A DNA stretch of 41,579 bases from a virus (Duplodnaviria; Heunggongvirae; Uroviricota; Caudoviricetes), in IMG/VR virus record IMGVR_UViG_2545824709_000014. One strand, written 5' to 3'. The notes below the pieces were generated by a model that had not been told where the DNA came from, searched no databases, and worked only from the letters and a program-made list of their open reading frames with translations. Below are positions 40-37,332 of the stretch, in pieces. The stretch's first letter is position 1, and every line of letters starts with the position of its first letter. A program made the translations under genes and the position numbers.

Positions 40-402
40 GGGGCTGATTCTGGATTCGACGGGATTTGCGAAACCCAAGGTGCATGCCGAGGGGCGGTTG
101 GCCTCGTAAAAAGCCGCAAAAAATAGTCGCAAACGACGAAAACTACGCTTTAGCAGCTTAATAACCTGCTTAGAGCCCTCTCTCCCTAGCCTCCGCTCTT
201 AGGACGGGGATCAAGAGAGGTCAAACCCAAAAGAGATCGCGTGGAAGCCCTGCCTGGGGTTGAAGCGTTAAAACTTAATCAGGCTAGTTTGTTAGTGGCG
301 TGTCCGTCCGCAGCTGGCAAGCGAATGTAAAGACTGACTAAGCATGTAGTACCGAGGATGTAGGAATTTCGGACGCGGGTTCAACTCCCGCCAGCTCCAC
401 CA
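40..402 (+). ncRNA. ssrA: tmRNA (SsrA), 363 nt, ending in CCA
   Basis: Begins GGGGCTGATTCTGGATTCGACGGG and ends ...GTTCAACTCCCGCCAGCTCCACCA; contains the tag-reading-frame region; matches the E. coli tmRNA as I recall it. Confidence 0.93.
358..402. repeat. att core, left copy (3' end of ssrA)
   Basis: 45 bp ATGTAGGAATTTCGGACGCGGGTTCAACTCCCGCCAGCTCCACCA, identical to 35367-35411. Confidence 0.85.
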
Positions 403-412
403 AATAAAACAA

Positions 413-444
413 GGGGTTACGTGAAAACGTAGCCCCTTTTTCTT
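413..444 (+). terminator. Rho-independent terminator after ssrA
   Basis: Hairpin GGGGTTACG-tgaaaa-CGTAGCCCC followed by TTTTTCTTT. Confidence 0.7.
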
Positions 445-447
445 TGG

Positions 448-470
448 TAGTGGCGGCAAAATGGCGATAG
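448..470. repeat. GGCGGCAA / ATGGCG motifs about 50 bp inside the left att core (possible Int arm-type sites)
   Basis: tagtGGCGGCAAaATGGCGatag; related ATGGCGGCAAC motifs recur at 35226-35276 inside the right end. Confidence 0.3.
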
Positions 471-575
471 CTATGGACTAGGGTTGGGTCCACCCACATT
501 GCCCTCTATCCTTATGAGTGATCGCACACACGCCTCTACTTTCAAGCTATATTCTAATCTCAATATGAGGCTACT

Positions 576-1289
576 ATGGACTTCAACCTGAACAAAAAAA
601 TGCCAGTTAATAGATATCTTGTGATAATAGTTTTTGTCCTTTTCATCTTAGCCTGTATGCAGTTTATTTATCTTTGCCTTCGTTCATTAAGCATTGCCCC
701 AAACTATACGGGAACTGTAAGTGACATTATAATAGCTACAACAAATATTATTTTAGCTACCTACGCCGTTCGTGCATTCAAAAACTTATTTAAAGATAAA
801 CTATCCGATAATGCCATTAGTAAAATAGATACAGCATTGATGTCTCTCGATGATTGCATAGATAGTTTTTCAAGCTTATTTTTAAATATGACACTTATTA
901 AGATTTATAAAAACACTAATAACCCCAAGGACCCTCAGTTAGTTAAACAGCTCGATGAAGCAGCAAAAAACATTGAAAAAGCAACAAGTTCAGCCTACAA
1001 GGCAAGATCTATAATTGACTCATTAACTCGTTGGAATATAAGCTTAAACACAGAAAAAGGAATAAGACTAAACCAACTTACCGCTGATGTTTTTGAGTTA
1101 GGCATGCAGGCAACAAATATGTATATCGCACTAATAAATGAAATAAACCCTAACTCCCCATACAACTCTTTAACTCATAGACCATTTGATGAGTTATTTA
1201 ACGAATTTAATGAAGAAAGGATCAGAGTTGAAGACGAAAGCAATGAATTAAAAGAGTTCTCTATTCATGAAATATTTAAAATCAAATAA
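576..1289 (+). CDS. Hypothetical membrane-anchored protein (two N-terminal hydrophobic helices plus a soluble domain of about 170 aa); AT-rich cargo gene
   Basis: 237 aa ORF with GAGG 6-9 nt upstream of ATG; hydrophobic segments LVIIVFVLFILACMQFIYLCL and IIIATTNIILATYAV; AT-rich codon usage unlike the flanking phage genes; no family recognised. Confidence 0.6.
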   Translation: MDFNLNKKMPVNRYLVIIVFVLFILACMQFIYLCLRSLSIAPNYTGTVSDIIIATTNIILATYAVRAFKNLFKDKLSDNAISKIDTALMSLDDCIDSFSSLFLNMTLIKIYKNTNNPKDPQLVKQLDEAAKNIEKATSSAYKARSIIDSLTRWNISLNTEKGIRLNQLTADVFELGMQATNMYIALINEINPNSPYNSLTHRPFDELFNEFNEERIRVEDESNELKEFSIHEIFKIK

Positions 1290-1364
1290 GTTATTATAGA
1301 ATAATTTTAAAAAATCATTTGCATTCTTCTTGTGTCAAAAATCAAATAACTGTCTCGATATTAT

Positions 1365-1387
1365 TCAAAACCCGCCAGCGGCGGGTT
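1365..1387 (-). terminator. Hairpin terminator downstream of ogr
   Basis: CCCGCC-agc-GGCGGG stem; on the minus strand it is followed by TTTTGAATAAT. Confidence 0.5.
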
Positions 1388-1391
1388 AGTA

Positions 1392-1607
1392 TCAGTAAAC
1401 TAATTGCTCCTGCATCCCTTTGGGATGCGGTGGGGCGGCACTGATTTTCTCGGGACGACAAACAGAACGAACAAAGGTTTCATGCGTTACAAATGTATGC
1501 CCACACTCAATATTAGTGCACTGATTGTAACGCTCTTTGGTTTGAGAGGAGACTTGAAAACTACTGCGAGTATGTGCGGCCTGACCACACAACGGACAAT
1601 TCATCAT
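1392..1607 (-). CDS. ogr: Late-gene transcription activator Ogr (C4 zinc finger)
   Basis: 71 aa; CPLCG...CTNIECGHTF matches P2 Ogr (CPLC...C..C); position next to D and the att end as in P2. Confidence 0.85.
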   Translation of the reverse strand: MMNCPLCGQAAHTRSSFQVSSQTKERYNQCTNIECGHTFVTHETFVRSVCRPEKISAAPPHPKGMQEQLVY

Positions 1608-3258: not shown

Positions 3259-6200
3259 GCGTCGTATCCCCCCTGATCGCTGTAGTTACTCCTGGCCTTT
3301 GCCTTCAGCCTGCGTTCACGTTCATCAAGCTGGCGGGCCACCTCCCGCGCAATATCCTGCGCACTTTGTCCTGGCTGCGTCTGGATGATGATCTGCGTCG
3401 GTGCCTCAATCCTGTAAACGGGTGGCACAGTGGCTGCGCGACTCACAATTGCTTCTCCACCTTTCGCGGGAAGTGCCAAAGGGTGCAACGGTGGAAGCTC
3501 TGCTGGCGCGGCAGCAACTCCCATCATTCCGGTAACAACGGCAGCCAGTGCAGCTGTATTTCTCCGGCTGGTCACATTTGCCGGGCCGTTAACAATTTCC
3601 GGCCCGTTTTCACCGACGATGCCAAACTGCCCGCGCGGGATATAGCCGCCGCTGTCATACATCCCCGCAAAGCCATATCCCCATGACGGAAAACCACCCG
3701 ATGGCATCATCACTTTACCGTCAGCATTCACCGTCGCAGGTTGCTGGCGCGTCACGCTTTCCGGCAGTTTTGCCTTTGCGACCTCTTTACTGACAATGCC
3801 GAGCTTCTCCAGCAACCAGGAAACGCCGGATTTCAGGGAGTCCAGCGGATGCATGACCATATTCAGCCCTTCCGCCAGTGCCTCCCCGAATCGTCGCCCC
3901 ATTGCCGCTGCACTCTGCAGTTCGACAGAGGTCGACTTAACGGGCGTCAGCAGATCAGTAAACCAGCCCCACAGCGCCTGTACTTTGTCGCCAATCCACT
4001 GGAACACGGGCTTAAGCGGTTCGAATGCTTCACTGACGGGACCTGCCGCCGCTTTGAATCCCTCCACCACGCCACCAAGAAATGCGGTGATGGGTTGCCA
4101 GTATTTCCAGACAACCAGCGCCACGCCCGCCAGTGCAGTAACCACAAGACCTATCGGACTGAGCAGAGCACCTAACAGACCAGATACGGCATACAGGGCA
4201 ACGCGCAGCATCGCCAGTGGACCAGATGCCAGTACTCGCAGCACCGTGCCTGCGGCGGCCAGTCCACCGCGCAGTACCGCCAGAGGATTCATAAACATCA
4301 CAGCAACAGCACGTAAACCGGATAATCCAGACCGCAAAAGTGCAATCGGCGCACCTGCTACAGTTTTCAGGACATTTCCCGTCAGTAATGCCGTGCGGCG
4401 CAAAGACGACAACGGCGCAGTAAGTAAACCTGCGGCGTTGCCCGATGAAGCAAGCCCGCGTCGCAGCAGTGCCAGTGGTGCGCCAGCCAGCCAGGACAAC
4501 GCGCTGCTGGTTCGGGTTACTGCTGCCGTAACGGAAGGTAACGTTTTGATACCCAGCACAGAGAATCCCAGACGAATCACTGCCAGCGGCCCCAGCACTG
4601 CAGCCAGTGCCACCGCTAAGGTTCCGAGGCCTACGGTAACCGCAGCCACCACAGCGGCTACTTTCATCAGTGTGCCTGTCAGTTCCGGGTTAGCTTCCAC
4701 CCAGCGGCGCAACGCCCCCGTGATGCTTTTCACCGTGTACAGAATATCCATCAGCGGCTGGCGCAGCGTTTCGCCCAGGCTGCTGAAGGTGTTCTGCGCT
4801 CCGGTTTTGACCAGCAACCACTGCGCAGAAAGTGAGTCCTTGTTAATGTCGGATTCTTTCTGCATGGAGCCGAGCGCATCATTGCCCGCTGTCAGTTTTA
4901 GCTGGCGCTGCAGTTCCGGCAGGTTGTTTGCCAGTTTCGCCGCGTCATCGCCAAACTCTTTACCAAACAACATGGTCATGGCAGACAGACGTTTATCCTG
5001 CGGCAGTGCGTTCACCTTCTCCAGTACGCGCTGGATAGTTCCCATCGCATCCTTCGTCATCTGCTTTTCAATCACTTCAGGATTGAGTTTCAGCAGATTC
5101 ATCCCTTCAAAGAAACTCTTGCTTTGCATGGTGGCAATGGACAATTCACGCACCATCGCGTTTGCTGCACTGGCTGCAACCTCTGGCGCAGCGCCCAGTG
5201 TCAGAAAGGTGGAACCCAGCGCCGCCGCTTTACGATAATCCAGACGATCAGCCACACCGCCCAGGCGTTGCATGACATCAATGATGTCTGCCCCTTTCGA
5301 CATGGCGTTATCATCCAGATAGTTCAGCGCATCACCGAGCTGTTCAATATTGCGGGTAGGAATTTTGTAGAGCTGGGCGATTTTCCCCAGACTTTCTGAC
5401 AGTTCATCCGCTGGCAGCTCAAAGGCTGTTGCCGCCTTTGCTGCCGTACTGGCGAAGGCCAGCAGGTCACGTTTCTGGTCCTCCCAGCTGTCGTCAGGGT
5501 TTGCGACGTTCATGCGCGCCCCACCTTCAACCAGTGCAGCGAAATCCACCGCACCGTTTTCCATCGGCAACTGTTCGCTGGCAGCCTTGATGGCATCCTG
5601 CATTTCATAAAAACGTGCAGTGCGGTTGCCATTATCGTCACGCAGACCATTGACCTGCTTTGCCACACCTTTCATGGCATCTTCCATGCTGGTATAGCTT
5701 TTTACTGCCGCCATCACTGGTGCGCCCATTGCCAGCCCTGCAGCCGTGGTGGTGGCTCCGGCACCTGCAATACGATCGCGCACCTCCAGCGAACGGGCAT
5801 AACTGGCACGCGCTGCATTCATCCTGCGCTGAGCTTCCCCCAGTCGCTTCAGCCGCGCCTCCTGTTTCGAAAGTTCCTGGTTATAACGTGATGTTTCACG
5901 GGCTAAACGGGCAGTTGCTCCCGCATCATCTTTCGCAGAAATTCCCGCCCGGTACAGTTCAGCACGCACAAGCGCCGTTTGCTTCTGCAAATATTTTTGT
6001 TGTTCTTCCAGGCGTTGGACTGCCAGCGTTTGCCGACCTAAAGCCACAAGATGCCTTTGTGATGGTTGCTCCATCGCCTCCAGCTCAGAGCTAAGCAAAT
6101 TAGCCTTCTGTCTGGCATAGTTCAGCCTGTCGCCTAACTTCTTGTTATCAGCCTGCAGCTTGCGAAATTTTTCCAGGCTGTTACCCACCTGATTGAGTTG

Positions 6201-8619: not shown

Positions 8620-9033
8620 TTATCTGCTTGCAGGGAAAACAGGCCAAATAATATCAGGTGCGGTGCTGGTATCTGTTGCCGTCACAGCCTCGATATAATC
8701 CAGCACAACGTTAAGTCGGGTAGTTTCTTCTTGCGTCAGTTTGCGCCCGGCCTGCAGCTTTAACTGAATCACGCTGATATTGACCATTGCTGCGTCTAAC
8801 AGCGACTGTTTTTTCTGTTCAGCGTCAGCTACCAGTTCATCATGAGAACGTTCCGGAGTGGGTGGCGCAGTAAATCCCCCGTCTGAATACACCCAGCCGA
8901 TTCCGGGCTGCTCACTGATATCAGAAATATTAATGAGCTGCTGATTATCCGGCACTGTGAATTCAGCCTCGCCATCCCAGACAATGACATTCACAACCAT
9001 CCCATTTTCAATAACTGCATATGACGCATTCAT
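8620..9033 (-). CDS. G: Tail fiber assembly protein G
   Basis: Downstream of H; start placed at the internal ATG that overlaps the H stop (TAATG); ORF track alternative start is 9057. Confidence 0.65.
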   Translation of the reverse strand: MNASYAVIENGMVVNVIVWDGEAEFTVPDNQQLINISDISEQPGIGWVYSDGGFTAPPTPERSHDELVADAEQKKQSLLDAAMVNISVIQLKLQAGRKLTQEETTRLNVVLDYIEAVTATDTSTAPDIIWPVFPASR

Positions 9034-10952
9034 TATGCAAGCTCCTCGATAATACAAATTCCAGCAGCACCTTTCCCGCCCGTCATATTAGTTCCGCTAT
9101 AACCGGCATCGTATGCACCACCGCCACCTGAACCATATGCCTTACCGCTAACACCACCGCCAGCGCCTGCGCGTCCACCGCCTCCCCAGTACGATGCACC
9201 GCCTTTACCGCTGACGCCGATATTCCCGGACTGACCGTCGCCTCCATCTCCACCAGTGATGCGGGTATCGCCAATATTCGGTACGCCTCCGTAACCACCG
9301 TTTGTGTTTGTGATTCCTGGTTTTCCGGCACCTTCACCTCCTGGAGCAATTAACGATGAGAACGAGCTATCACCTCCCTTGTAACCCACTGACGCACCGA
9401 CACCGCCTCCACCGCCTGCACCGATAACGACAGGATAACTATTCTCTGTCAGGGTCATTGTTGAAATAATTGTTCCACCTGCTCCACCGCCTGCACCAAA
9501 AAACGTTTCGTTACTGGATGCTGCTTTGCATCCGCCCCCTCCGCCACCGCCGCCCGTTATTGTGACCCTGATCCGTTTTGTTCCTGGTGTCGGGGTGTAC
9601 GTACCTGATGACGTGAAAACCCGGGTATTCACCAAGCGTCCCACGTATCCGTTTGTAGCTCCCAAACCAAGATAATGAATAACCTCCTGTTTGCTTGTTT
9701 TAGCCAGAATATCCCGTCCAACATTAGTCAGGGTTGTCAGGCTGGCTGTATCATTCCCCGTAAAATACGGTAGTTTGTCTGCCGCAGTGGCAAGGCCTGC
9801 CAGTGCGGTCAGTGTGGCGTCGGCAGGTTGTTTTCCATTGGCAAGGTCATATACAGCCTTCACGGCTTTTGGTGTGGCAGCCTGCGTTTCTGACGTGCTG
9901 TTAGTGGCGCTGCTGAGTTGCACGGTGCCTTTTACCGTCAGTGAAGCTGCAGGCACATCCGTTATCTGGCTCCATGGGTGCGTGTGACTGACAGGTGCCT
10001 TACCTGCTGCAAGGTCATATGCCGCCTTCACTGCCTTTGGAGTGGCAGCCTGCGTTTCTGACGTGCTGTTAGTGGCGCTGCTGAGTTGCACGGTGCCTTT
10101 TACCGTCAGTGAAGCTGCAGGCACATCCGTTATCTGATTCCACGGGTGTGTGTGACTGACAGGAGCCTTACCTGCTGCAAGGTCATATGCCGCCTTCACT
10201 GCCTTTGGAGTGGCAGCCTGCGTTTCTGATGTGCTGTTAGTGGCGCTGCTGAGTTGCACAGTGCCTTTTACCGTCAGCGAGGCTGCAGGTACACCTGTTA
10301 TCTGATTCCACGGGTGTGTGTGACTGGCGGATGCTTTACCTGCTGCAAGATCATATGCAGCCTTTACAGCCTTCGGTGTTGCGGCCAGTATTTCGGATTC
10401 ACTGTTGGTCGCACTGCTTAACTGAGTAAAACCTTTTGCGGTCAGCGAGGCGTCCGGGTGACGTCGTGACTGTTCGTGCTCTGATATTTTGTCATCCACA
10501 TACTTGCGGGTTGCCAGCACTACGGCAGGGTCAATTTTCAGGGTGATATTGTCCATACTGCTGGTAATCAGCACCATGCGCACGGTCTGGGTGCGCCCGC
10601 TGCCTTCAGCCAGTTGCGGCTTATAGCTTTCCGGGCAGTTGCCCACGGCAATTAGTGCCCCGGATTCATCAAACAGGCCCACTTCACGTATCCACCAACC
10701 GCCCTCGTTTTCAGGGATCACCTGTTCAGCAATAATCTGGCTGCTGTTTTGCGGGTCGATATAGAGCATATTCAGCGCAGCCCGGCGTTTCTCATTTACC
10801 AGTGCCGTCTGCTTTGCGTCCGGCGTTGGCAATACTCCGCCGCCATCGCCCACCGCCATATGGGTAATTTTTAGCGGCACACCGAGCGCGGCGGCGCTGG
10901 CAAGTTTCGCCGCGCCAATATCCGTCAGCAGGGTATAAAATTTTGTGCTCAT
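9033..10952 (-). CDS. H: Tail fiber protein H with internal 56-aa tandem repeats and a glycine-rich C-terminal module
   Basis: 639 aa; conserved N-terminus MSTKFYTLLTDIGAAKLA...; repeats of AATPKAVKAAYDLAAGKAPVSHTHPWNQITDVPAASLTVKGTVQLSSATNSTSETQ; C-terminus with poly-Gly motifs. Confidence 0.85.
   Translation of the reverse strand: MSTKFYTLLTDIGAAKLASAAALGVPLKITHMAVGDGGGVLPTPDAKQTALVNEKRRAALNMLYIDPQNSSQIIAEQVIPENEGGWWIREVGLFDESGALIAVGNCPESYKPQLAEGSGRTQTVRMVLITSSMDNITLKIDPAVVLATRKYVDDKISEHEQSRRHPDASLTAKGFTQLSSATNSESEILAATPKAVKAAYDLAAGKASASHTHPWNQITGVPAASLTVKGTVQLSSATNSTSETQAATPKAVKAAYDLAAGKAPVSHTHPWNQITDVPAASLTVKGTVQLSSATNSTSETQAATPKAVKAAYDLAAGKAPVSHTHPWSQITDVPAASLTVKGTVQLSSATNSTSETQAATPKAVKAVYDLANGKQPADATLTALAGLATAADKLPYFTGNDTASLTTLTNVGRDILAKTSKQEVIHYLGLGATNGYVGRLVNTRVFTSSGTYTPTPGTKRIRVTITGGGGGGGGCKAASSNETFFGAGGGAGGTIISTMTLTENSYPVVIGAGGGGGVGASVGYKGGDSSFSSLIAPGGEGAGKPGITNTNGGYGGVPNIGDTRITGGDGGDGQSGNIGVSGKGGASYWGGGGRAGAGGGVSGKAYGSGGGGAYDAGYSGTNMTGGKGAAGICIIEELA
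9830..10440. repeat. Tandem 168-bp repeats (about 3.6 copies) inside H
   Basis: Near-identical units starting at about 9830, 9998, 10166 and 10334; the two middle copies are almost identical. Confidence 0.8.
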
Positions 10953-22248: not shown

Positions 22249-24456
22249 TTAAGTACGTAACATAATTTGCTGTTGAACTTGGATAGGCTGTAAGGTTTGA
22301 TATTTCTGCCTAATTAGGTTATATAAATCCGGCATTTCTTCAGCAGATAAAGTCACGACAAGAACATATGGTAGTTCTTCTAACTCGTCAACATCAATAG
22401 GCATACCACAGTCTCTACCATAGTAGATAATATCAAAGCATGGGTTTGTCAGCTCATTCGGTTTAAATTTGTGTTCACTTCTTAACGTAGTCTCCCATTT
22501 ATGTGCATCAACACGTTGCTCATTTTCATCTGCATAAACATTTTTTAGATTAAAAAGAGGAAACGTTAACCCGGAACTATCTGAAACACCTTTTCTCATG
22601 GTTACTTCTAGACCGCTTCTTGTATAATTCAAAGGATGTTCCGCATCTACAGGACTGGAAAAGCAGAATGTCGCTCTTAAATTTACACATCCACGCATAG
22701 GTACATCTGGAAACGGAATAGGTGCTCGCATGTGTTGTGATGGTTTTAAAGTACCTTGATATATAACTTTAACTTCATCATCATCACAAAATATTACTTC
22801 ACTAAGATCATGAGGAAATCGTCCCCAACCAACTTCAGCACGATTGATATTATTGCTCTCCGCATGATGTATAAGCAGAGCTTTAGCCGTAAGTGGTGTA
22901 ATGTTGTAATTTAGAGAAGCACTTAACGCGATTGCTTGCCTCAGGACTAATGGAGCTGAAAAGCTAGTCCCCGCAGTGCGGGCAAGACCATTAACCATAG
23001 GGCTGTATACCTGGAATGGCTCATCAGAATGTCCTCCAAATGCAACTCCATCAGGCTTCACAAAGCCAGGGCTTCGTCCAGGACCAATACAACTGTAAGA
23101 ACATCTTTCCCAACTATCAGATAAAGAGGTTGCTGCACCTACTGACAGACCATTAACTAAATCAGCAGGTGGTTGAATTCGATTTAACTTGGCAGGCAGC
23201 TGACCATCATTTCCAACCGCGACAGTACAAAGTGTTTCTCCTGATGCAAGTATCTCCTCAAGAGTTGAGGTCCACACATGCACGTCATCGTCATCAACAG
23301 GTAATCTAGGTCCTAAGCTCAGATTGATATAATCATATTTTTTTTGTTCTAATACACTTTTAATACGGATCAGAACGTCAAAAAGATCGACATCTGAGTT
23401 ATTAACATTGGAATCCAGTACACGATAATGGTCAATATTACAATAAGGAACACTTAATTTTTCCGTTTCAGAGCCAAGAACACCAAATAACACAGTAGAG
23501 GTGACATCCTGTCCATGAGAAAGAAGTTTTGCATTAGTACTAGCATTACCGTTGAAAGTGTACTCTGTTACCCAAGGATTGAAATCATCGATCCCCAATC
23601 CACCATCGAATATGGCAACCTTTATATGTGGGTTTACCGCTCCTTCAGATGGTAAACTAAGGTTAGATGTTTGAATCACAGAACGTGATATAACAGGCTC
23701 ACTTAGCCTTAATTCAGGAAGTTCTCTCAAAGTCCTGAGAAATGAAAACTCTGCAACTTTTAAAGCTACATCTTTACTAGCCTTAATAGGCATAAAGGTT
23801 AGCCCCTTAACCTTTATACTTCTTGCCTTATCTATAACAGCACCATTTTGCGAAGCAAAAACTTCAAAACTATCGACAATAGAGGAACTTGTATCAGGAG
23901 TATGTAAGGCGACCTCAATACTCATAACTTCATTGCTATTAATCGTTTTTACTTTATCTGAAACTTCCAGTATTGAAATATTTTCTAAGGTGACAAAATC
24001 ATTTTGCTGCCCTTTCGTTAGGGTATCTTGATTTACAGAGTCTAAGAATGATTGAAAACTTTCTTTTTTGCCAGAAACATAAATACACGCTGTAGTGTAT
24101 TCCTCTTTTCGCCCTCTTTTTTTAATATCTTTTCTAGGTTTTACTTTTACAGCCTTACTGCCTATGCTTTCTAGGGAAAATCGCTCAAAAAGACTTACTG
24201 GAAAATAACTTTTTGCTAAGAATGCCGGATGCAAAACAAATTTTGCTACAGCCTTACCTTCAGGCATTGCTAACAATGGAAGGGTATTAATTTCCTCAAT
24301 CAACTCTTCCAGTTGAGCAGATATCACTGGTTTATTTTCTGAATAAGAGTAAGGTTTATTCTTTTCACCTCCACCTCTGTTAAGTTTAACAGGGTTAGTT
24401 AGTGTTTCACCATAGCCAAGAAGCATATTTTTATCATTCATTGTCTTCATCCTCAA
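22249..24456 (-). CDS. Subtilisin-like (S8) serine peptidase with long N-terminal extension; candidate IetS-like defence protease
   Basis: 735 aa; S8 triad motifs VAIFDGGLG (Asp), SHGQDVTS (His), GTSFSAPLV (Ser); AT-rich; coupled to the upstream ATPase gene. Confidence 0.7.
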   Translation of the reverse strand: MRMKTMNDKNMLLGYGETLTNPVKLNRGGGEKNKPYSYSENKPVISAQLEELIEEINTLPLLAMPEGKAVAKFVLHPAFLAKSYFPVSLFERFSLESIGSKAVKVKPRKDIKKRGRKEEYTTACIYVSGKKESFQSFLDSVNQDTLTKGQQNDFVTLENISILEVSDKVKTINSNEVMSIEVALHTPDTSSSIVDSFEVFASQNGAVIDKARSIKVKGLTFMPIKASKDVALKVAEFSFLRTLRELPELRLSEPVISRSVIQTSNLSLPSEGAVNPHIKVAIFDGGLGIDDFNPWVTEYTFNGNASTNAKLLSHGQDVTSTVLFGVLGSETEKLSVPYCNIDHYRVLDSNVNNSDVDLFDVLIRIKSVLEQKKYDYINLSLGPRLPVDDDDVHVWTSTLEEILASGETLCTVAVGNDGQLPAKLNRIQPPADLVNGLSVGAATSLSDSWERCSYSCIGPGRSPGFVKPDGVAFGGHSDEPFQVYSPMVNGLARTAGTSFSAPLVLRQAIALSASLNYNITPLTAKALLIHHAESNNINRAEVGWGRFPHDLSEVIFCDDDEVKVIYQGTLKPSQHMRAPIPFPDVPMRGCVNLRATFCFSSPVDAEHPLNYTRSGLEVTMRKGVSDSSGLTFPLFNLKNVYADENEQRVDAHKWETTLRSEHKFKPNELTNPCFDIIYYGRDCGMPIDVDELEELPYVLVVTLSAEEMPDLYNLIRQKYQTLQPIQVQQQIMLRT

Positions 24457-25516
24457 CCGTCAAAACCTTACGTACTTGTGACCTTGAAATCCCCAAATCT
24501 AAAGCGATTTTTCTTTGTGATACATTGTTGTTTGACATGTTTTTTATAACATCATCAAGTGACACGCCATCTAACAACTCATCAATTAAAGCTGAACTTA
24601 AAGGAATATCTTCTATAATGGCATTTCTTTTAGCTTGATTTATAGCTCTCTCAAGAACTGCATATGAAACTTTTTCGAGTTTTGTAGCAATATAGTACGA
24701 TAAGCTATCTCCAATATTTTTAGAACAGAGATATCTTCTCATTAGGTCTTGTGTTGGATATTCAAAATCAATAACTCGATCGAATCTTCTCCATGCAGCA
24801 GGATCAAGCAGCTCCGCATGGTTAGTTGCTGCTATAAGAACAGACGTATTTGGCCATTCATCAATTGCTTGCAATAATACTGTAACTAATCTTTTTAGTT
24901 CTCCAACATCTGTTGCATCATCCCTTTTTTTAGCAATCGCATCAAATTCGTCAAGAAGCAGTACACAAGGGAATGACGAAGCATAATTGAGGACTGCCTT
25001 AATATTATTACCCGTTTTCCCCAAGTAGCTACTCATTACACTTGCGAGATCTAATGTTAACAATGGCATATCGAGTTTAAAAGCGAGCCACTTTGCAGCC
25101 AAAGTCTTCCCCACACCGGGTGGTCCTCCCATAAGAAGAGATTTGGACGGATGCAACCCTTCTTTATAAAGGCGTTCTTTCATTTCCCACTCAGCCACAA
25201 ATCGATTCAGTTGAACATCAGTTTTTGTTGGCCAAACAGGTTCAACATCAATGACCACAGGATATGTTTCAACTAGCAGCTTTTGTCTTGTATCCGCATC
25301 AACAGGTGTTATTTTAGGAACAACTGGATTAGCCCTTTCGACTGCAATTGCGCCACCTGTATTAATAAGTAAATCTTCTAATTTACCCGCTAATTCAGGA
25401 GATTCTTTTTTTAGTTTTTTTGCCATAATCCGCAACCGCATGAGGAGACTTTCCCTCTTCCCGGTAAGAGCATCACTGACAACATCAATGAGCATTTCGT
25501 TTGTAACGTTTATCAT
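24434..25516 (-). CDS. AAA+ ATPase with C-terminal HTH-like tail; candidate IetA-like defence ATPase
   Basis: 360 aa; Walker A GGPPGVGKT, Walker B VLLLDEFD; C-terminal QRKIALDLGISRSQVRKVL; AAGGGTGG SD upstream. Confidence 0.7.
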   Translation of the reverse strand: MINVTNEMLIDVVSDALTGKRESLLMRLRIMAKKLKKESPELAGKLEDLLINTGGAIAVERANPVVPKITPVDADTRQKLLVETYPVVIDVEPVWPTKTDVQLNRFVAEWEMKERLYKEGLHPSKSLLMGGPPGVGKTLAAKWLAFKLDMPLLTLDLASVMSSYLGKTGNNIKAVLNYASSFPCVLLLDEFDAIAKKRDDATDVGELKRLVTVLLQAIDEWPNTSVLIAATNHAELLDPAAWRRFDRVIDFEYPTQDLMRRYLCSKNIGDSLSYYIATKLEKVSYAVLERAINQAKRNAIIEDIPLSSALIDELLDGVSLDDVIKNMSNNNVSQRKIALDLGISRSQVRKVLTVEDEDNE

Positions 25517-25930: not shown

Positions 25931-26164
25931 TTAATGCAACCAGCTGTCGTCTTCCCACACTTTCTGCATAATTTTCATCACTTGTTTTCTTTCTTCGTCC
26001 AGTTGCAGTCCGGTAAGTTCCACACCGTTAGAGCTACCTTTGCGGATACGAATTACCGTTTTTGGATATAGGGGGTGCAGGTTGCGGTAAAGCTCGGACT
26101 CCAGAGCGTCCAGGGTAGACTGGCTAATCTTCTGCTCTTTATCGATCATTATTTCAATGCGCAT
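25931..26164 (-). CDS. DinI-like protein
   Basis: From the internal Met: MRIEIMIDKEQKIS...VWEDDSWLH resembles DinI (MRIEVTIAK...WESADDW); GAGGTGA SD upstream of that ATG; ORF track start is 26236. Confidence 0.65.
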   Translation of the reverse strand: MRIEIMIDKEQKISQSTLDALESELYRNLHPLYPKTVIRIRKGSSNGVELTGLQLDEERKQVMKIMQKVWEDDSWLH

Positions 26165-26174
26165 AAAAGTCACC

Positions 26175-26363
26175 TCAGCTGATGACATCCATTGAGCGGT
26201 TGTATTCGTGGGTTCTGATTTTTGCCATGAGTTCATCTGTTAGTTCAGAAACCCACTGCAAAGCCAGCCCCTTCTCTTCATCACTACACTCACTAGCCGC
26301 TACAAGCTTAAGAAAAAAATCAATGCGCTGGAGCTTCAAAGACTCCAAAAAATAATCCTGCAT
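26175..26363 (-). CDS. Small hypothetical protein, first gene of the putative SOS-controlled operon
   Basis: 62 aa ORF immediately downstream of the LexA-box-like dyad and upstream of the DinI-like gene. Confidence 0.45.
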   Translation of the reverse strand: MQDYFLESLKLQRIDFFLKLVAASECSDEEKGLALQWVSELTDELMAKIRTHEYNRSMDVIS

Positions 26364-31725: not shown

Positions 31726-32358
31726 ATGATACAGGTAAAGGCTGGAGAGAATACAGGGGGAAGAGAGGCTATCCATAGACTAATGGCAGCCTATGATTTC
31801 AAGTCCAGACAGCAACTTTGCGATCACTTAGGCGCATCAAAAAGCACCATGGCAAACAGATACTTAAGAGATAGTTTTCCTGCAGAGTGGGTGATTCAGT
31901 GCGCCTTGGAAACAGGAGTTTCTTTACTGTGGCTAACCACCGGACAGGGAGAGCCAGGTCCAAACATTGAACCTAAAAAAAATATCAATTCCGTGAACTC
32001 CAGCAAGGTTGTACCTCTTTCTGAACTAGTATCTCCTGAAATTGACAAGGCGACTCTCAACGGTGGTTTATTGGTCGATGCTGGAAAAGCAATCATTGAT
32101 AGCAGCATACTCCCCTCAGACTCAAGCAACCTACTGCTGGTGACTACTTCTGGTGATTCTTATTTAATAGATCGCAACCAAACACCACCAGTAAATGGTA
32201 TGTGGTTAGTCGATATCGACGGGATAAAAAGCATTGTTAAATTGACTCGGCTCCCGGGAAACAAATTAGTAGTGCATCAGGATGATTCATCGTTTGAGTG
32301 CGGTCTGGATGACATTGAGGTAGTAGGCCGCGCACTGAAAATCATTAAGAGCCTTTGA
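31726..32358 (+). CDS. cI: CI immunity repressor (186 type)
   Basis: 210 aa; N-terminal HTH region resembles 186 CI; immediately followed by int. Confidence 0.7.
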   Translation: MIQVKAGENTGGREAIHRLMAAYDFKSRQQLCDHLGASKSTMANRYLRDSFPAEWVIQCALETGVSLLWLTTGQGEPGPNIEPKKNINSVNSSKVVPLSELVSPEIDKATLNGGLLVDAGKAIIDSSILPSDSSNLLLVTTSGDSYLIDRNQTPPVNGMWLVDIDGIKSIVKLTRLPGNKLVVHQDDSSFECGLDDIEVVGRALKIIKSL

Positions 32359-32359
32359 T

Positions 32360-33373
32360 ATGACCATCAGAAAACAGCCGAACGGAAAATGGTTGTGTGA
32401 GTGCTATCCCAATGGACGCAATGGCAAGCGCGTGCGTAAGCAATTTGCTACGAAAGGCGAAGCCATTGCGTTTGAAAGCTTCACAATGGAAGAAGTGAAT
32501 AAAAAACCGTGGTTGGGTGAAAAGGATGATCGGCGACGCCTATCAGAATTAATTGAGCTTTGGTATTCCCTGTATGGTCAAACACTCGCAGACCCCAAGC
32601 GCCTCATGGCGAAACTTAGAATTATCTGTAATGGTCTAGGCGATCCCATCGCCTCAGAACTGACAGCTGGTGACTTTACAAAATACCGCGAAGCACGGTT
32701 AAAAGGTGAAATACGAAATGAAGATGGCACGCTTATGTCGCCCGTAAAGCCCCGCACGGTAAACCTTGAACAGCGCAATCTATCATCTGTGTTCGGTACA
32801 TTAAAAAAACTAGGACACTGGTCAGCACCAAACCCGCTGGCAGGACTTCCGACCTTCAAAATTGCCGAAGGTGAGCTGGCTTTTCTTTCCACGGACGAAA
32901 TCAAGCGCCTGTTGGCGGCATGTGCTGAATCTCAAAACCCTAGCTTACTAATGATTGCAAAAATATGCCTAGCTACTGGCGCACGGTGGAGTGAAGCCGA
33001 AAATCTGCAGGGCCACCAAATATCGAAATACCGAATTACTTATACAAAAACAAAAGGCAAGAAAAACAGAACAGTACCCATATCACAGGAGCTGTATGAC
33101 GAACTCCCAAAGAACAGAGGGAAGTTATTCTCACCATGTAGAAAAGCCTTTGAACGAGCAGTAAAACGGGCAGGTATAGATCTACCGGATGGCCAATGCA
33201 CCCACGTGCTGCGACATACGTTTGCTAGCCACTTTATGATGAATGGCGGGAACATACTTGTGCTAAGGGATATTTTGGGACATTCGGATATCAAGATGAC
33301 CATGGTTTACTCACATTTCTCACCAGATCATCTTGAAGATGCCGTTACTAAGAACCCATTAAACTTGATATAA
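32360..33373 (+). CDS. int: Tyrosine integrase (P2/186 family)
   Basis: 337 aa; C-terminal HVLRHTFASHFMMNGG...LGHSDIKMTMVYSHF with catalytic R, H-x-x-R and Y. Confidence 0.85.
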   Translation: MTIRKQPNGKWLCECYPNGRNGKRVRKQFATKGEAIAFESFTMEEVNKKPWLGEKDDRRRLSELIELWYSLYGQTLADPKRLMAKLRIICNGLGDPIASELTAGDFTKYREARLKGEIRNEDGTLMSPVKPRTVNLEQRNLSSVFGTLKKLGHWSAPNPLAGLPTFKIAEGELAFLSTDEIKRLLAACAESQNPSLLMIAKICLATGARWSEAENLQGHQISKYRITYTKTKGKKNRTVPISQELYDELPKNRGKLFSPCRKAFERAVKRAGIDLPDGQCTHVLRHTFASHFMMNGGNILVLRDILGHSDIKMTMVYSHFSPDHLEDAVTKNPLNLI

Positions 33374-33386
33374 AACAGCCAAAATT

Positions 33387-35144
33387 CTATTTCATCAAGT
33401 AATCCAATTCATCCTTCATAGGTATAACTTGCTCATAAAGTCTATGGTAGGATTTTCCAATTGCACCCCTAAATTGAATAAGTTTAGGGGAAAAGCTACC
33501 GATATTAATAATATGTTCTTGCGCTATACCAGGATATGGATCGATAAAAATAATCTCTGTCATACCTAACTGATAAGCTTTTTTAGCACAAAGTTCACAA
33601 GGGCTAGCTGTAGTATATAGTTTCCCTCCATTAATACCGACCCCACCATATTTGGCCAATTGCAAAAAAGCATTCTCCTCTGCGTGCAATGCACGGGTAT
33701 GCACTTGATTCCCTTTCTTTTCATCATCAAGGCTGTTGTGAATATCTTTAAAACAATATGGCAAATTAAGTCCTTTAAAAACAGTAGAACTTGAATCACT
33801 CGCCCTTATTTTTATTAAATTTTCTTTAACTTTACTCCTAAATTTTGTATTACTTCGTTCGTACAGGCTATATGTTCCCTCATCAAAATCATGCAATAAC
33901 CCATCAAATGACCTCATAGAACAAGGAACTTGACCTTTTGCTACATCGTTCCAACCAACTGACTTGATAGAGTTATCATTATCTGTCACAACCGCCCCTA
34001 CTTGCCTAGATATACATCCAGAATTTAGTTTTACAGTATATGCAACTTGCATAACCCTTTCCATGGCGGTAGGAGATATTAATCCAGGGTGTTGCATTAA
34101 TGATACATACCACGCAATTTGTGCTTTGAGAAAATTATTATTATCAAATTCTTTTTTAGGGTTAAAAAAATGTATATCTGAAATTTCAATGCATTTTTTT
34201 ACATTAGGATTAGTAAGATGATTATACTCGCCATCTCCTTTACCAGATTCTTCATCATTAATTTTTTTTATCTGTTCCTCTGAGAACTTATGTAATTTCT
34301 TTAAATATCTGGTTCGATGTTCATCTGGTGCATTTATAGAAACCAGATGGAATGCAGCATATCTATCTTTGAAGAATTTAGCTTCATACGGGTTACGTAT
34401 CGCATCAATGACTATATACGCTTTATTATTCTTTACTTTTCTAATTATTTTAATAACACGATTAATTGTTTCAGGTAAATGAAAAACAGCCTTTGGAATA
34501 AAGTCTTGATTTTCATAATCTACATCAACCTTCCCTATTCTTCTAATTGACTTTCCTGCTGACTGATATAGCTCAATATATAAACCTGGCTCTAGTTCAT
34601 TTAATTCCCTTTTAAAATCCCGTGTAAATTTTCGAGTAAGAGTTAATATCCTAATAAAGGTATCTTTCCCCCTGCCTTTAAAGTCAATCTCATCATCATG
34701 ATTAAGAAGATTTTTTATCACCTCAAGATATTTTATCTTCAACAAACTTTTAGCGAACACACCATTAACAACCAGTTTCTTGGCTGCCTTAAAGGAAATC
34801 GAATTTTCTTTTTTATCGGGGATTTTACTTGCAGAAAACTGAATGAATTTAGCTAAGGCCGATGGAGATAAAAGGAGCAAATATATTGAAATGAGATCAC
34901 TGACCTTTATCGAATAGAAGTTCTTCCAATGAGTCTCTGCAAAATTTTTTACTATTTCATAACGCCGCAAATCCAATCCTTTATAATACTCAGCCAAGAC
35001 GTTACTATCTGGAAAAGATATTTCTTTTTGTTCTAAAATATTTGCTGCAGTAGTACATCCTGAGCCAGTTCTCCCAGTTAAACCAATAAGAATAAATTGA
35101 CTATTTTCTAAAAAAAGCTCACTAATAAATTTGTGTTCTCTCAT
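33387..35144 (-). CDS. P-loop kinase-like domain fused to CMP/dCMP-type deaminase domain; candidate AvcD / defensive dCTP deaminase
   Basis: 585 aa; N-terminal P-loop GLTGRTGSGCTT; C-terminal zinc-deaminase signature HAEENA...SPCELC; AT-rich; lies between int and attR. Confidence 0.65.
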   Translation of the reverse strand: MREHKFISELFLENSQFILIGLTGRTGSGCTTAANILEQKEISFPDSNVLAEYYKGLDLRRYEIVKNFAETHWKNFYSIKVSDLISIYLLLLSPSALAKFIQFSASKIPDKKENSISFKAAKKLVVNGVFAKSLLKIKYLEVIKNLLNHDDEIDFKGRGKDTFIRILTLTRKFTRDFKRELNELEPGLYIELYQSAGKSIRRIGKVDVDYENQDFIPKAVFHLPETINRVIKIIRKVKNNKAYIVIDAIRNPYEAKFFKDRYAAFHLVSINAPDEHRTRYLKKLHKFSEEQIKKINDEESGKGDGEYNHLTNPNVKKCIEISDIHFFNPKKEFDNNNFLKAQIAWYVSLMQHPGLISPTAMERVMQVAYTVKLNSGCISRQVGAVVTDNDNSIKSVGWNDVAKGQVPCSMRSFDGLLHDFDEGTYSLYERSNTKFRSKVKENLIKIRASDSSSTVFKGLNLPYCFKDIHNSLDDEKKGNQVHTRALHAEENAFLQLAKYGGVGINGGKLYTTASPCELCAKKAYQLGMTEIIFIDPYPGIAQEHIINIGSFSPKLIQFRGAIGKSYHRLYEQVIPMKDELDYLMK

Positions 35145-35225
35145 TTCGCACCTGTTACGTTATAACACAAGTCTCTTCCATGTTGTATTTATTAGTATTT
35201 ATTAAAAAACAAGAAATTGCAACAT

Positions 35226-35276
35226 AGCGGCAACAATACACACACCAAGAAAATGGCGGCAACTTGGCGGCAGAGC
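35226..35276. repeat. Three GGCGGCA(A/G) motifs upstream of the deaminase gene and inside attR
   Basis: AGCGGCAAC, ATGGCGGCAAC and TTGGCGGCAGAG within 50 bp; related motifs occur at 448-470. Confidence 0.3.
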
Positions 35277-35366: not shown

Positions 35367-35411
35367 ATGTAGGAATTTCGGACGCGGGTTCAACTCCCGC
35401 CAGCTCCACCA
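35367..35411. repeat. att core, right copy (duplicated 3' end of ssrA)
   Basis: 45 bp identical to 358-402; followed by its own hairpin and T-run, then a P4-type integrase. Confidence 0.85.
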
Positions 35412-35576
35412 CTTTTTAGTTGTTTGAAGTTCAATGAAGTCTACTAAGCCCACACAGCACAAGCTCTGCGGGCTTTTTTACGTCTATTGTCGTCCAGTGA
35501 GAATTGCTGAGAACTACGAGTTATGGCACCCTGAATGGGACCCATTAAGAAGGGTCCAAAAACCGAGGGTCCCAAA

Positions 35577-36806: not shown

Positions 36807-36844
36807 GTATCAGAATAGCTAATATAATCCTGAAGGTAAAGAAA

Positions 36845-37261
36845 ATGGAAACCCTATTCAAAGTTTTTGAAAAATTTAGTTCCAGACCACTTTTTTTTAT
36901 TTTTTTCGGACTCTCACTTTGTGAATTTTTTCAGAAACAATCTGTTCTGATGAATCCATCAGCAGATAACATCGCGAAATTATTCGCAGCCATGATATTA
37001 GTTGTTTTTTTTACTTGGGGATTTGAATGGCTAATCTTCAAGTTCAATGTAAACCTTGAACCTCATGATCAAGGCGATATTGGACCAACAATTGGAACGG
37101 CTACTTTAGCTGTATACTTAGTTTATGCCTTTCACTTTCTCAGTGAAAATCCTGAAGCATTAAATTTAAAGTTATTAACTAACTCTGGCTTTATATACAG
37201 CACAACTCTATTATTATTCTCATTAGAATGCATGAAGCTTAGAAGACTTAAACAAAAATAA
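36845..37261 (+). CDS. Small hypothetical membrane protein (about four predicted TM helices)
   Basis: 138 aa; AT-rich; hydrophobic segments LFFIFFGLSL, AAMILVVFFTWGFEWLIF, IGTATLAVYLVYAF, IYSTTLLLFSL. Confidence 0.5.
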   Translation: METLFKVFEKFSSRPLFFIFFGLSLCEFFQKQSVLMNPSADNIAKLFAAMILVVFFTWGFEWLIFKFNVNLEPHDQGDIGPTIGTATLAVYLVYAFHFLSENPEALNLKLLTNSGFIYSTTLLLFSLECMKLRRLKQK

Positions 37262-37291
37262 ACAACATCATTGTGATGATAAATATAAAAT

Positions 37292-37320
37292 AGGCATGGC
37301 GAAAAAAAATCACCACGCCT
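37292..37320. terminator. Hairpin between the convergent 4-TM gene and the receiver-domain gene
   Basis: AGGCATGG ... CCACGCCT imperfect inverted repeat around an A-rich loop. Confidence 0.3.
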
Positions 37321-37332
37321 AAAATATAATAA

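What the first reader, a model, noticed from the sequence alone, without database searches (positions are those of the whole stretch)
576..1289. AT-rich membrane-anchored orphan gene between attL and ogr
A 237-aa protein with two N-terminal TM helices and a soluble domain of about 170 aa, in markedly AT-rich DNA, with its own SD and a downstream hairpin. It lies between the ssrA terminator and ogr, where P2 itself has no gene. Prophage-end morons of this kind are frequently superinfection-exclusion or abortive-infection factors; I recognise no family.
Basis: partly seen in the sequence, partly recalled or inferred. Interest (0 to 1): 0.5.

Follow-up and report, generated by a model that had tools for sequence, protein, structure and literature searches.

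The report
Orphan membrane-protein cargo gene beside prophage attachment site
A real, conserved but uncharacterised accessory gene of P2/186-like prophages encodes a small inner-membrane protein with a four-helix bundle; it is a reasonable untested candidate for a single-gene phage-exclusion factor.

Summary
The ORF at 576..1289 (+) is real: 237 aa, GAGG Shine-Dalgarno, GC 0.32 against 0.52 for the prophage, and dN/dS about 0.2. It is the first gene inside a 35-kb P2/186-like prophage integrated at ssrA (att core 358-402 = 35367-35411). It sits in an ~895-bp AT-rich cassette between the phage att arm and the ogr terminator. P2 and a related prophage (EC96) have no gene there.

The protein is predicted to have one strong and one marginal polar TM helix, then a probably cytoplasmic four-helix bundle. 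No Pfam, PHROG, PADLOC, NCBIfam or PDB family matches. An exhaustive profile search of 1.84 billion representatives found four clusters.

All ~17 known clusters are in Enterobacterales and every context examined was a prophage or ssrA-adjacent island. They occupy at least four cargo slots: att-ogr, int-att, the P2 S-V (orf30) slot, and the end of a lambdoid prophage next to EcoRII. The gene is usually alone, so it appears autonomous.

Function is untested. I favour a lysogen-expressed membrane factor acting against competing phages (about 0.5), either abortive-infection-like or entry-blocking. The "downstream hairpin" is the ogr terminator. Interest is moderate.

The parts
358..402 (+). attL core: the 45-nt 3' end of ssrA, repeated exactly at 35367-35411 (attR). 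It defines the integrated element.
   Evidence: family D4, 100% identity; tmRNA 40..402
403..470 (+). Phage-supplied att arm: a replacement ssrA terminator hairpin (411-438) plus the motif GTGGCGGCAAAATGGCG, a putative Int arm-type site. It is conserved in all att-ogr-slot loci.
   Evidence: hairpin -20.1 kcal/mol, z -4.9; alignment A3; 96.5% identity to TUM12355; related GGCGGCAA repeats on the int side. The Int-binding role is inferred by analogy with the P2 annotation.
471..575 (+). 5' part of the AT-rich cassette: a leader that is divergent between alleles, with the Shine-Dalgarno GAGG at 567-570. No convincing sigma-70 promoter.
   Evidence: only 52.6% identity to TUM12355, while the flanks are 94-96% identical
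576..1289 (+). The gene: 237 aa. N-terminal basic tail, TM1 (about 14-35), short conserved loop APNYTGT, polar TM2 (about 47-68), then a four-helix bundle (78-112, 120-153, 160-190, 204-225) closed by a small two-stranded sheet (154-155 with 234-235).
1290..1369 (+). 3' part of the cassette: AT-rich, non-coding, and not conserved between alleles.
   Evidence: 50.4% identity over 1290-1391 to TUM12355
1370..1386 (-). GC-rich hairpin CCCGCC-AGC-GGCGGG with a U-run on the minus strand. It is the ogr terminator and may act in both directions.
   Evidence: -16.7 / -13.8 kcal/mol; present in the empty-slot prophage EC96; P2 annotates a terminator at this position
1392..1607 (-). ogr, the late-gene activator: the conserved phage gene that bounds the slot.
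   Evidence: Ogr_Delta 4.8e-22
33387..35144 (-). Anti-phage dCTP deaminase gene between int (32360..33373) and attR. In the circular phage it is the divergent neighbour of the ORF across attP. It is independent cargo in the same int-attP-ogr interval.
   Evidence: PADLOC dCTPase 2.1e-146; (only 2 of the 12 ORF-bearing genomes share it)
35367..35411 (+). attR core.

Best explanation
SHOWN (about 0.9).
The ORF is the coding part of an autonomous accessory cassette ('moron') of about 895 bp. The cassette is carried by a P2/186-like temperate phage integrated at ssrA. It is inserted between the attP arm and the ogr terminator, so it lies in the int-attP-ogr interval.

Its product belongs to a tiny family restricted to Enterobacterales. 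Every context examined (a sample of the clusters) was a prophage or an ssrA-adjacent island. Members sit in at least four different cargo slots. The family is under purifying selection.

The predicted architecture has four parts:
- a basic N-terminus facing the cytoplasm;
- a TM hairpin with a short, highly conserved periplasmic loop;
- a polar second TM helix that runs on into the first helix of the bundle;
- a cytoplasmic four-helix bundle.

INFERRED.
The protein is made in the lysogen and sits in the inner membrane, where it acts against competing phages (about 0.5).

The mechanism I commit to (about 0.3) is abortive-infection-like. The cytoplasmic bundle acts as the sensor or oligomerisation module, with its tip loops being the variable part. 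A change in the bundle is passed through the continuous TM2-bundle helix to the conserved polar hairpin (T45, T47, S49, D50, N57). The hairpin then perturbs or permeabilises the membrane, or a membrane partner, and stops phage development.
For: Real gene:
- The ORF is far longer than chance allows.
- dN/dS is 0.22-0.25 for unsaturated pairs.

Inside the prophage and dispensable:
- The att repeats bracket the element.
- P2 and the EC96 prophage have an empty slot.
- The cassette is only 50-70% identical between two prophages whose flanks are 94-96% identical.

Mobile among cargo slots:
- att-ogr (window; L002, L003-6, L011, L018).
- int-att of another ssrA-integrating phage (L013).
- P2 S-V/orf30 slot (L014-17, L029).
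- Distal end of a lambdoid prophage next to Dcm/EcoRII (L024-28).

Autonomous:
- The gene is usually solitary.
- The two same-strand neighbours are unrelated to each other. One is a RES-like moron that occurs alone in RE-2010, SopEPhi and Cartapus.
- It is independent of the dCTP deaminase and of the other slots.

Defence neighbourhood:
- dCTP deaminase and IetAS are in the same prophage.
- EcoRII lies beside P0017.

Architecture:
- Two AF2 models were made, of the window protein and of a homologue 28% identical to it: pLDDT 78 and 85.
- In the second model TM2 and bundle helix 1 form one continuous helix, residues 38-110.
- The basic residues (positive-inside rule) support an N-in/C-in topology.

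Conservation pattern:
- TM2, the loop and the linker have mean pairwise identity 0.61-0.68. The bundle helices have 0.44-0.52 and the distal loops 0.29-0.30.
- pN/pS is 0.10-0.30 for the hairpin and 0.28-0.45 for the bundle.
- Invariant polar residues lie in and next to TM2.
Against: - No defence, Abi or Sie HMM matches, and there are no experimental data.
- Fold matches are only generic four-helix bundles: de novo designs and chemoreceptor ligand-binding domains, at 6-16% identity.
- No sign of positive selection on the bundle.
- TM2 hydrophobicity is marginal and its hydrophobic moment is low, 0.18, so there is no clear pore-lining face. The C-terminal domain could still be periplasmic.
- No promoter stands out above background, so expression in the lysogen is assumed.
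- In this phage lineage only two slot states were seen, the family gene or empty. The slot is therefore not shown to have the high cargo turnover of a classic defence hotspot.
- The gene is rare (13 of 5426 complete E. coli genomes) and is sometimes truncated (a 127-aa allele in TUM1887).
Confidence: 0.4

Rival explanations
1. Superinfection-exclusion protein that blocks genome entry. The TM hairpin and its conserved periplasm-facing motif (APNYTGT, D50, and often an acidic residue in TM1) would bind either the incoming phage's ejection or tape-measure machinery, or the host inner-membrane protein that phage uses. DNA would then not reach the cytoplasm and the cell would survive. The cytoplasmic bundle would only stabilise or oligomerise the protein.
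For: - The loop and the outer end of TM2 are the most conserved part of the protein.
- It is a single autonomous gene, AT-rich, and at a prophage end.
- From general knowledge, not tested here: the characterised exclusion proteins of temperate and virulent coliphages (P22 SieA, T4 Imm, HK97 gp15) are small inner-membrane proteins encoded by solitary genes.
Against: - Only about 10 residues would face the periplasm, while about 160 conserved residues are cytoplasmic.
- There is no sequence or fold match to any annotated exclusion protein in PHROGs, Pfam or BFVD.
Confidence: 0.2
2. Lysogenic-conversion factor unrelated to phages. The membrane protein would alter host physiology, for example envelope stress, transport, signalling, colonisation or competition, to the benefit of the lysogen.
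For: - P2-like moron slots are known to carry non-defence cargo. Examples are the neaT acyltransferase in the G-FI slot (PMC3573123), and partition systems and cytolethal distending toxin in the cos-adjacent hotspot (PMC9122126).
- There is no match to any defence model.
- The four-helix bundle resembles ligand-binding or sensor bundles in shape.
Against: - The family was found only in phage-linked contexts and is rare and patchy.
- It has no enzymatic or signalling output domain.
- Its neighbours are defence genes rather than virulence genes.
Confidence: 0.2
3. Accessory function in the phage's own life cycle, for example modulating lysis timing, membrane-associated replication or assembly, or the lysis-lysogeny decision or excision. 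This would follow from its place beside attP and ogr.
For: - It is adjacent to attP and to the late activator ogr.
- It is a membrane protein, as holins and antiholins are.
Against: - It is absent from P2, from the related EC96 prophage, and from all 50,697 deposited phage genomes.
- It occurs in unrelated slots, and in a lambdoid phage with a different lysis and regulatory system.
- It is oriented against the flanking late operons.
- It lies outside the lysis cassette.
Confidence: 0.07
4. Functionless hitch-hiking ORF, or a decaying remnant with no current role.
For: - It is rare.
- One allele is truncated to 127 aa.
- It survives in degraded prophage remnants (L003-6, L007).
Against: - The frame stays intact down to 29% identity across several genera.
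- dN/dS is about 0.2, with stronger constraint on the hairpin.
- 23 positions are invariant across the 15-sequence alignment.
- An open frame of 237 codons at 32% GC has P about 1e-8.
Confidence: 0.03

Closest known systems
P2 accessory genes in the classical moron regions: old/tin (A-Q), orf30 (S-V), Z/fun (G-FI)
   Same: It is a dispensable, AT-rich, foreign-looking gene between conserved P2-type genes. Distant family members sit exactly in the S-V (orf30) slot. According to the literature, old, tin and fun exclude other phages.
   Different: There is no sequence similarity to anything in P2 or any deposited phage. The window copy sits in a fourth place, between attP and ogr. That place is not among the three regions listed in the literature read here (PMC6823313 and PMC3573123) and is empty in P2.
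Inner-membrane superinfection-exclusion proteins (P22 SieA, T4 Imm, HK97 gp15)
   Same: It is a small, solitary, phage-encoded predicted inner-membrane protein, plausibly acting from the lysogen.
   Different: No homology is detectable. Most of this protein is a cytoplasmic helical bundle, which those proteins lack as far as I know (from memory, not tested).
Two-TM abortive-infection effectors (SLATT-type and other 2TM effectors of CBASS, retrons and Pycsar; lambda RexB)
   Same: It has an N-terminal TM hairpin joined to a cytoplasmic domain, and the hairpin is the most conserved part.
   Different: There is no Pfam or PADLOC match. There is no partner gene making a signal; the gene is solitary. 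The cytoplasmic domain is a plain four-helix bundle, not a nucleotide-binding domain.
Four-helix-bundle ligand-binding domains of chemoreceptors and sensor kinases (Tar, Tsr, PcaY, TorS)
   Different: Identity is 6-15% and the match scores no better than de novo designed bundles do. The bundle follows TM2 instead of lying between TM1 and TM2. There is no HAMP, kinase or methyl-accepting output domain and no Pfam hit. The resemblance is therefore fold-level only.
Uncharacterised proteins A0A8S5QRM6 and A0A8S5QRD7 of Myoviridae sp. ctoNH1 (BFVD)
   Same: These were the only viral structure matches below E 1e-3 (2.3e-5 and 9.8e-5; TM-score 0.57 and 0.43), and they are of similar size.
   Different: Identity is 13-18% and no function is known. 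Their sequences could not be retrieved, so homology is untested.

Membership tests
Prophage moron (autonomous accessory cassette) | Lies inside the prophage boundaries between conserved phage genes | tested here: met
   The att core repeats at 358-402 and 35367-35411 bracket it. ogr/D lie on one side and the conserved att arm on the other.
Prophage moron (autonomous accessory cassette) | Absent from closely related phages (dispensable) | tested here: met
   The slot is empty in P2 and in the EC96 prophage, which has the same att arm and ogr. There is no hit in 50,697 phage records.
Prophage moron (autonomous accessory cassette) | Base composition unlike the phage backbone | tested here: met
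   GC is 0.32 against 0.52. All family members have GC 0.28-0.34.
Prophage moron (autonomous accessory cassette) | Own promoter and terminator; expressed from the repressed prophage | tested here: inconclusive
   A Shine-Dalgarno sequence is present. No promoter-like site upstream of the ORF stands out above shuffles. The only hairpin is ogr's terminator. Expression was not measurable with these tools.
Known anti-phage defence systems (PADLOC-DB 2.0) | Match to a defence-protein HMM | tested here: not met
   0 families at E up to 10 for the window protein. 0 families at E up to 0.1 for P0013, P0014 and P0015.
Inner-membrane superinfection-exclusion proteins (SieA / Imm / gp15 type) | Sequence or fold homology to a characterised exclusion protein | tested here: not met
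   PHROGs gave only two sub-threshold, function-unknown hits. Pfam gave none. BFVD gave only uncharacterised proteins.
Inner-membrane superinfection-exclusion proteins (SieA / Imm / gp15 type) | Blocks genome entry of a superinfecting phage while adsorption is normal | not testable with these tools
   Needs phage challenge, adsorption and DNA-entry assays.
Two-TM abortive-infection effectors (SLATT and relatives) | Pfam SLATT or other 2TM-effector domain match | tested here: not met
   There was no such hit at E up to 1 or in PADLOC.
Two-TM abortive-infection effectors (SLATT and relatives) | Encoded in an operon with a sensor or signal-generating partner | tested here: not met
   It is solitary in the window and in L017, L029 and L024. 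The two same-strand neighbours are unrelated and independent.
Two-TM abortive-infection effectors (SLATT and relatives) | N-terminal TM hairpin | tested here: inconclusive
   TM1 is clear. TM2 is marginal by hydropathy (1.48) but helical, paired with TM1 in two AF2 models, and followed by a basic cluster.
Chemoreceptor-type four-helix-bundle sensor domain (4HB_MCP/TarH) | Sequence-family match, position between two TM helices, and a downstream signalling output domain | tested here: not met
   There is no Pfam hit. The bundle follows both TM helices and the protein ends at residue 237. The fold similarity is generic.
Lipoprotein exclusion factors (Cor / Llp / Ltp type) | Conserved lipobox cysteine after a signal peptide | tested here: not met
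   C27 of the window protein is replaced by T, S, A, V or F in its homologues (alignments).

The most novel reading that the evidence does not exclude
The family is a new single-protein anti-phage system with its own mechanism. A cytoplasmic four-helix-bundle sensor would be rigidly coupled, through a continuous helix, to a conserved polar two-TM hairpin, which is the membrane-acting effector. The system would be carried as a self-sufficient cassette that hops between cargo slots of P2-like and lambdoid prophages. As a corollary, the int-attP-ogr interval of ssrA-integrating P2/186-like phages would be a further defence-cargo site beside the three classical moron regions. Here that interval holds this gene on one side of attP and a dCTP deaminase on the other.
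Probability: 0.25. Interest if true: 0.6.

Novelty: new member of a known kind. Interest (0 to 1): 0.4.

Why it matters
If it protects against phages, it would add a compact (about 0.9 kb) single-gene membrane-based defence with no relatives among catalogued systems. It would also point to the attP-flanking interval of P2/186-like prophages as a place to mine for more. In this window that interval already holds a validated type of defence gene, the dCTP deaminase.

If it does not, it is simply one more uncharacterised prophage membrane protein. The family is small, rare and limited to Enterobacterales, so the wider impact is modest. The gene is easy to test.

Tried and rejected
Searches that found no family:
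- Pfam, PHROGs, PADLOC and NCBIfam scans of the protein, of distant members and of neighbouring genes gave nothing significant.
- A PDB sequence-profile search gave only spurious coiled-coil hits, with E of 0.13 or more.
- The AFDB library was unavailable.
- tblastn against phage genomes (three family members) and against plasmids found no match.

Hypotheses rejected:
- Two-gene system with the dCTP deaminase across attP. Only 2 of the 12 ORF-bearing genomes carry that deaminase allele, and PEC1011 has a different gene in that slot.
- Two-gene system with the upstream neighbours in L013 and L014. They are unrelated to each other and to the family, and the RES-like one occurs alone in other phages. 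The 246-aa neighbour has no phage hit.
- The convergent TM-plus-helical neighbours in L007 (203 aa) and L024 (191 aa) as paralogues or a shared partner. They show no similarity.
- Lipoprotein or lipobox. The cysteine is not conserved.
- Amphipathic, pore-lining TM2. The hydrophobic moment is low, 0.18.
- Positive selection on the bundle or its loops. pN/pS is below 0.6 everywhere.

Inconclusive or empty:
- Promoter search upstream of four family members was not above background.
- Rfam found only tmRNA in the window.
- Literature searches found no paper on this protein or accession.

Full report
**1.
The plus strand carries an ATG-initiated ORF at 576..1289 (237 aa). GAGG lies at 567-570, five bases before the ATG.

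The 895-bp stretch around the ORF has a composition of A 0.36, T 0.31, G 0.14 and C 0.18. At that composition a stop codon is expected every 14 codons. The chance of 237 open codons is about 1.5e-8. None of 5000 shuffles gave an open run above 153 codons, against 243 observed.

The ORF has GC 0.32 (GC3 0.30), against 0.52 for the prophage body.

ARAGORN and Rfam place tmRNA at 40..402. A strong hairpin with a U-run follows at 411-438. The gene at 1392..1607 (-) is ogr (Pfam Ogr_Delta, 4.8e-22), followed by gene D.

**2. Where the gene sits.**
A perfect 45-nt direct repeat (358-402 and 35367-35411) marks the ends of the integrated element. The ORF is therefore the first gene inside a 35-kb prophage at ssrA. 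The prophage is P2-like and has a CI-type repressor and an integrase at 31726-33373.

In P2 itself the ogr-int interval holds only the ogr terminator, Int and IHF sites and the attP core. A related E. coli prophage (EC96) has the same att arm and a similar ogr but an empty slot. It reads: core, terminator, GTGGCGGCAAAATGGCG, 28 nt containing a second GTGGCGGCAAAA, then the ogr terminator. This delimits the insertion in the window to about 471-1365.

Compared with the TUM12355 prophage, the flanks are 94-96.5% identical. The leader, gene and trailer are only 52.6, 69.7 and 50.4% identical. The cassette is therefore an old, exchangeable allele set in a young backbone.

It abuts the ogr stop codon and exists in the empty-slot prophage. 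It matches P2's annotated ogr/F-operon terminator.

**3. A real but tiny family.**
The word-indexed search of 5.8 billion proteins returned 12 clusters. An exhaustive HMMER profile search of 1.84 billion representatives returned four. A second profile search added two more, for about 17 clusters at 29-97% identity. Every source calls the protein 'hypothetical'.

Named hosts are E. coli, Citrobacter, Enterobacter, Salmonella and an unclassified enterobacterium.

Among complete E. coli genomes, 12 of 5426 carry the window type and one carries the P0017 type. No copy is found in 50,697 deposited phage genomes or 72,556 plasmids.

Nei-Gojobori dN/dS is 0.25, 0.23 and 0.22 for the three least saturated pairs. 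28 positions are invariant across the 13-sequence alignment, and 23 across the 15-sequence alignment.

**4. Contexts of the homologues.**
- *Same att-ogr slot.* This is the arrangement in TUM12355, in a metagenomic P2-like contig and in Enterobacteriaceae bacterium G50. It is also seen in degraded P2-like remnants that follow a CbtA/CbeA island.
- *Next to ssrA without phage genes.* In one enterobacterial contig the gene and the ogr-terminator hairpin remain beside ssrA, but the phage genes are gone.
- *On the int side of the core.* P0013 lies in another ssrA-integrating phage, in the order int, RES-like gene, P0013, arm sites, core.
- *P2 S-V slot.* P0014, P0015 and P0016 lie between baseplate gene V and tail gene S. 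The literature names this as the orf30 moron region (PMC6823313).
- *Lambdoid prophage.* P0017 lies after the tail-fibre genes of a lambdoid prophage. A Dcm/EcoRII restriction system and ssrA follow it.

The gene is usually alone. The two same-strand upstream genes (397 aa and 246 aa) are unrelated to each other and to the family. The 397-aa protein is a RES-like moron that stands alone next to int in RE-2010, SopEPhi and Cartapus.

In the circular phage of the window, the ORF's divergent neighbour across attP is an anti-phage dCTP deaminase (PADLOC 2.1e-146). That allele is present in only 6 genomes, and only 2 of these also have the ORF. PEC1011 keeps the ORF but carries other cargo in the int-att slot and the cos-adjacent slot.

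The gene therefore behaves as a self-contained unit.

**5. The protein.**
Hydropathy gives one strong TM segment (about 14-35, maximum 2.93). It also gives a marginal second one (47-68, maximum 1.48). Basic residues cluster before TM1 and after TM2, and the loop between them is about 10 residues long. This favours both termini facing the cytoplasm.

AlphaFold2 gives the same architecture for the window protein and for a homologue 28% identical to it:
- Window protein: pLDDT 78, pTM 0.61.
- P0017: pLDDT 85, pTM 0.67.

Each model shows two N-terminal helices at lower confidence. These are followed by a confident four-helix bundle, closed by a two-stranded sheet between the H4-H5 loop and the C-terminus. 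In the P0017 model TM2 and the first bundle helix form one uninterrupted helix (residues 38-110).

Conservation is highest in the loop, TM2 and linker (mean pairwise identity 0.61-0.68). It is lower in the bundle helices (0.44-0.52) and lowest in the two loops at the far tip of the bundle (0.29-0.30). pN/pS follows the same order, and there is no sign of positive selection.

Invariant polar residues lie in and beside TM2: P42, T45, T47, S49, D50 and N57. Others lie at the membrane-near end of the bundle: K83, D85, R152 and W153.

**6. No known family.**
Pfam, PHROGs, PADLOC and NCBIfam give nothing significant. The PDB sequence profile gives nothing.

The only viral structure hits are two uncharacterised proteins of one uncultured myovirus.

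**7. Interpretation.**
What is shown: this is an autonomous accessory cassette of temperate enterobacterial phages. It encodes a probable inner-membrane protein that is conserved under purifying selection and moves between cargo slots.

What is inferred: it works in the lysogen against competing phages (about 0.5). The grounds are:
- its mobility between moron slots;
- its composition;
- defence genes around it (dCTP deaminase and IetAS here; EcoRII beside P0017);
- the precedent that P2 cargo sites are reservoirs of anti-phage genes (PMC9122126).

Within that reading I favour a sensor-effector design (about 0.3). The cytoplasmic bundle would sense or oligomerise, and the conserved polar hairpin would act on the membrane. 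The reasons are that most of the protein is cytoplasmic, the hairpin is the most constrained part, and TM2 runs into the bundle.

The other readings are:
- an entry-blocking exclusion protein, about 0.2;
- a conversion factor unrelated to phages, about 0.2;
- a role in the phage's own cycle, about 0.07;
- a functionless ORF, about 0.03.

**8. Weak points.**
- There is no experiment.
- No defence model matches.
- No promoter was found.
- TM2 is marginal, so the topology is not settled.
- In this phage lineage only two states of the slot were seen: the family gene in 12 genomes and an empty slot in 2. The search also would have missed larger inserts or more divergent ogr alleles. The att-ogr site is therefore not yet shown to be a high-turnover hotspot.

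**9. Verdict.**
The gene is a new member of a known kind, prophage accessory membrane proteins. It is moderately interesting and cheap to test.

Noticed in passing
window 33387-35144 (-): A 585-aa anti-phage dCTP deaminase (PADLOC dCTPase 2.1e-146; Pfam dCMP_cyt_deam_1) sits between the integrase gene and attR. Both sides of attP therefore carry AT-rich cargo (GC 0.33). This allele is in only 6 of 5426 complete E. coli genomes.
   Followed up: partly
window 22249-25516 (-): An IetA (AAA ATPase, 360 aa) and IetS (subtilase, 735 aa) defence pair lies in the region between the replication genes and the portal gene. This matches the P2 cos-adjacent hotspot of Rousset et al. GC is 0.38.
   Followed up: partly
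window 35535-40801: Directly after attR lies a second integrase (423 aa). It is followed by a 138-aa ORF and a convergent pair: a Response_reg_2 protein (588 aa) and a HEF_HK/HATPase_c protein (572 aa). This looks like a separate island in tandem at ssrA. There is no PADLOC match (same arrangement in PEC1011).
   Followed up: partly
window 449-470 and 35225-35275; L033 349-400; L013 6813-6830: Repeated GGCGGCAA-type motifs (GTGGCGGCAAAATGGCG and variants) flank the att core on both arms. They are probably the Int arm-type binding sites of this ssrA-integrating phage group. The empty-slot prophage has two copies on the ogr side; the window has one clear copy.
   Followed up: no
window 9841-10418: Three tandem copies of a 168-nt unit (84-95% identical) lie inside the 639-aa ORF 9033..10952 (-), probably the tail-fibre gene.
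   Followed up: no
L018 about 5860-5960: In Enterobacteriaceae bacterium G50 the leader between the att arm and the homologous gene is filled by a run of CAGGCAGT-like octamer repeats (alignment).
   Followed up: no
L007 7018-7629 (-) and L024 7052-7627 (-): In two unrelated contexts the gene convergent with the family member encodes a small protein (203 and 191 aa) with an N-terminal TM helix. The rest of each protein was not analysed structurally. The two show no sequence similarity to each other, and the 203-aa one none to the family.
   Followed up: partly
NZ_CP128963.1 (E. coli TUM1887), hits H3/H28: This genome has the locus at 99.8-99.9% nucleotide identity, but the database lists a 127-aa product for it. 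This suggests a frame-disrupting mutation in one lineage.
   Followed up: no
L003-L006: Degraded P2-like remnants keep ogr, the family gene, the immunity region, a split integrase and the dCTP deaminase, but have lost most structural genes. They lie directly after a CbtA/CbeA-RadC-antirestriction island. One such contig is labelled Acinetobacter sp. MAG, probably a binning error.
   Followed up: no
window 25931-26236 (-): A DinI-like gene (Pfam DinI, 4.8e-23) lies next to the IetAS cargo, as in the PEC1011 prophage.
   Followed up: no
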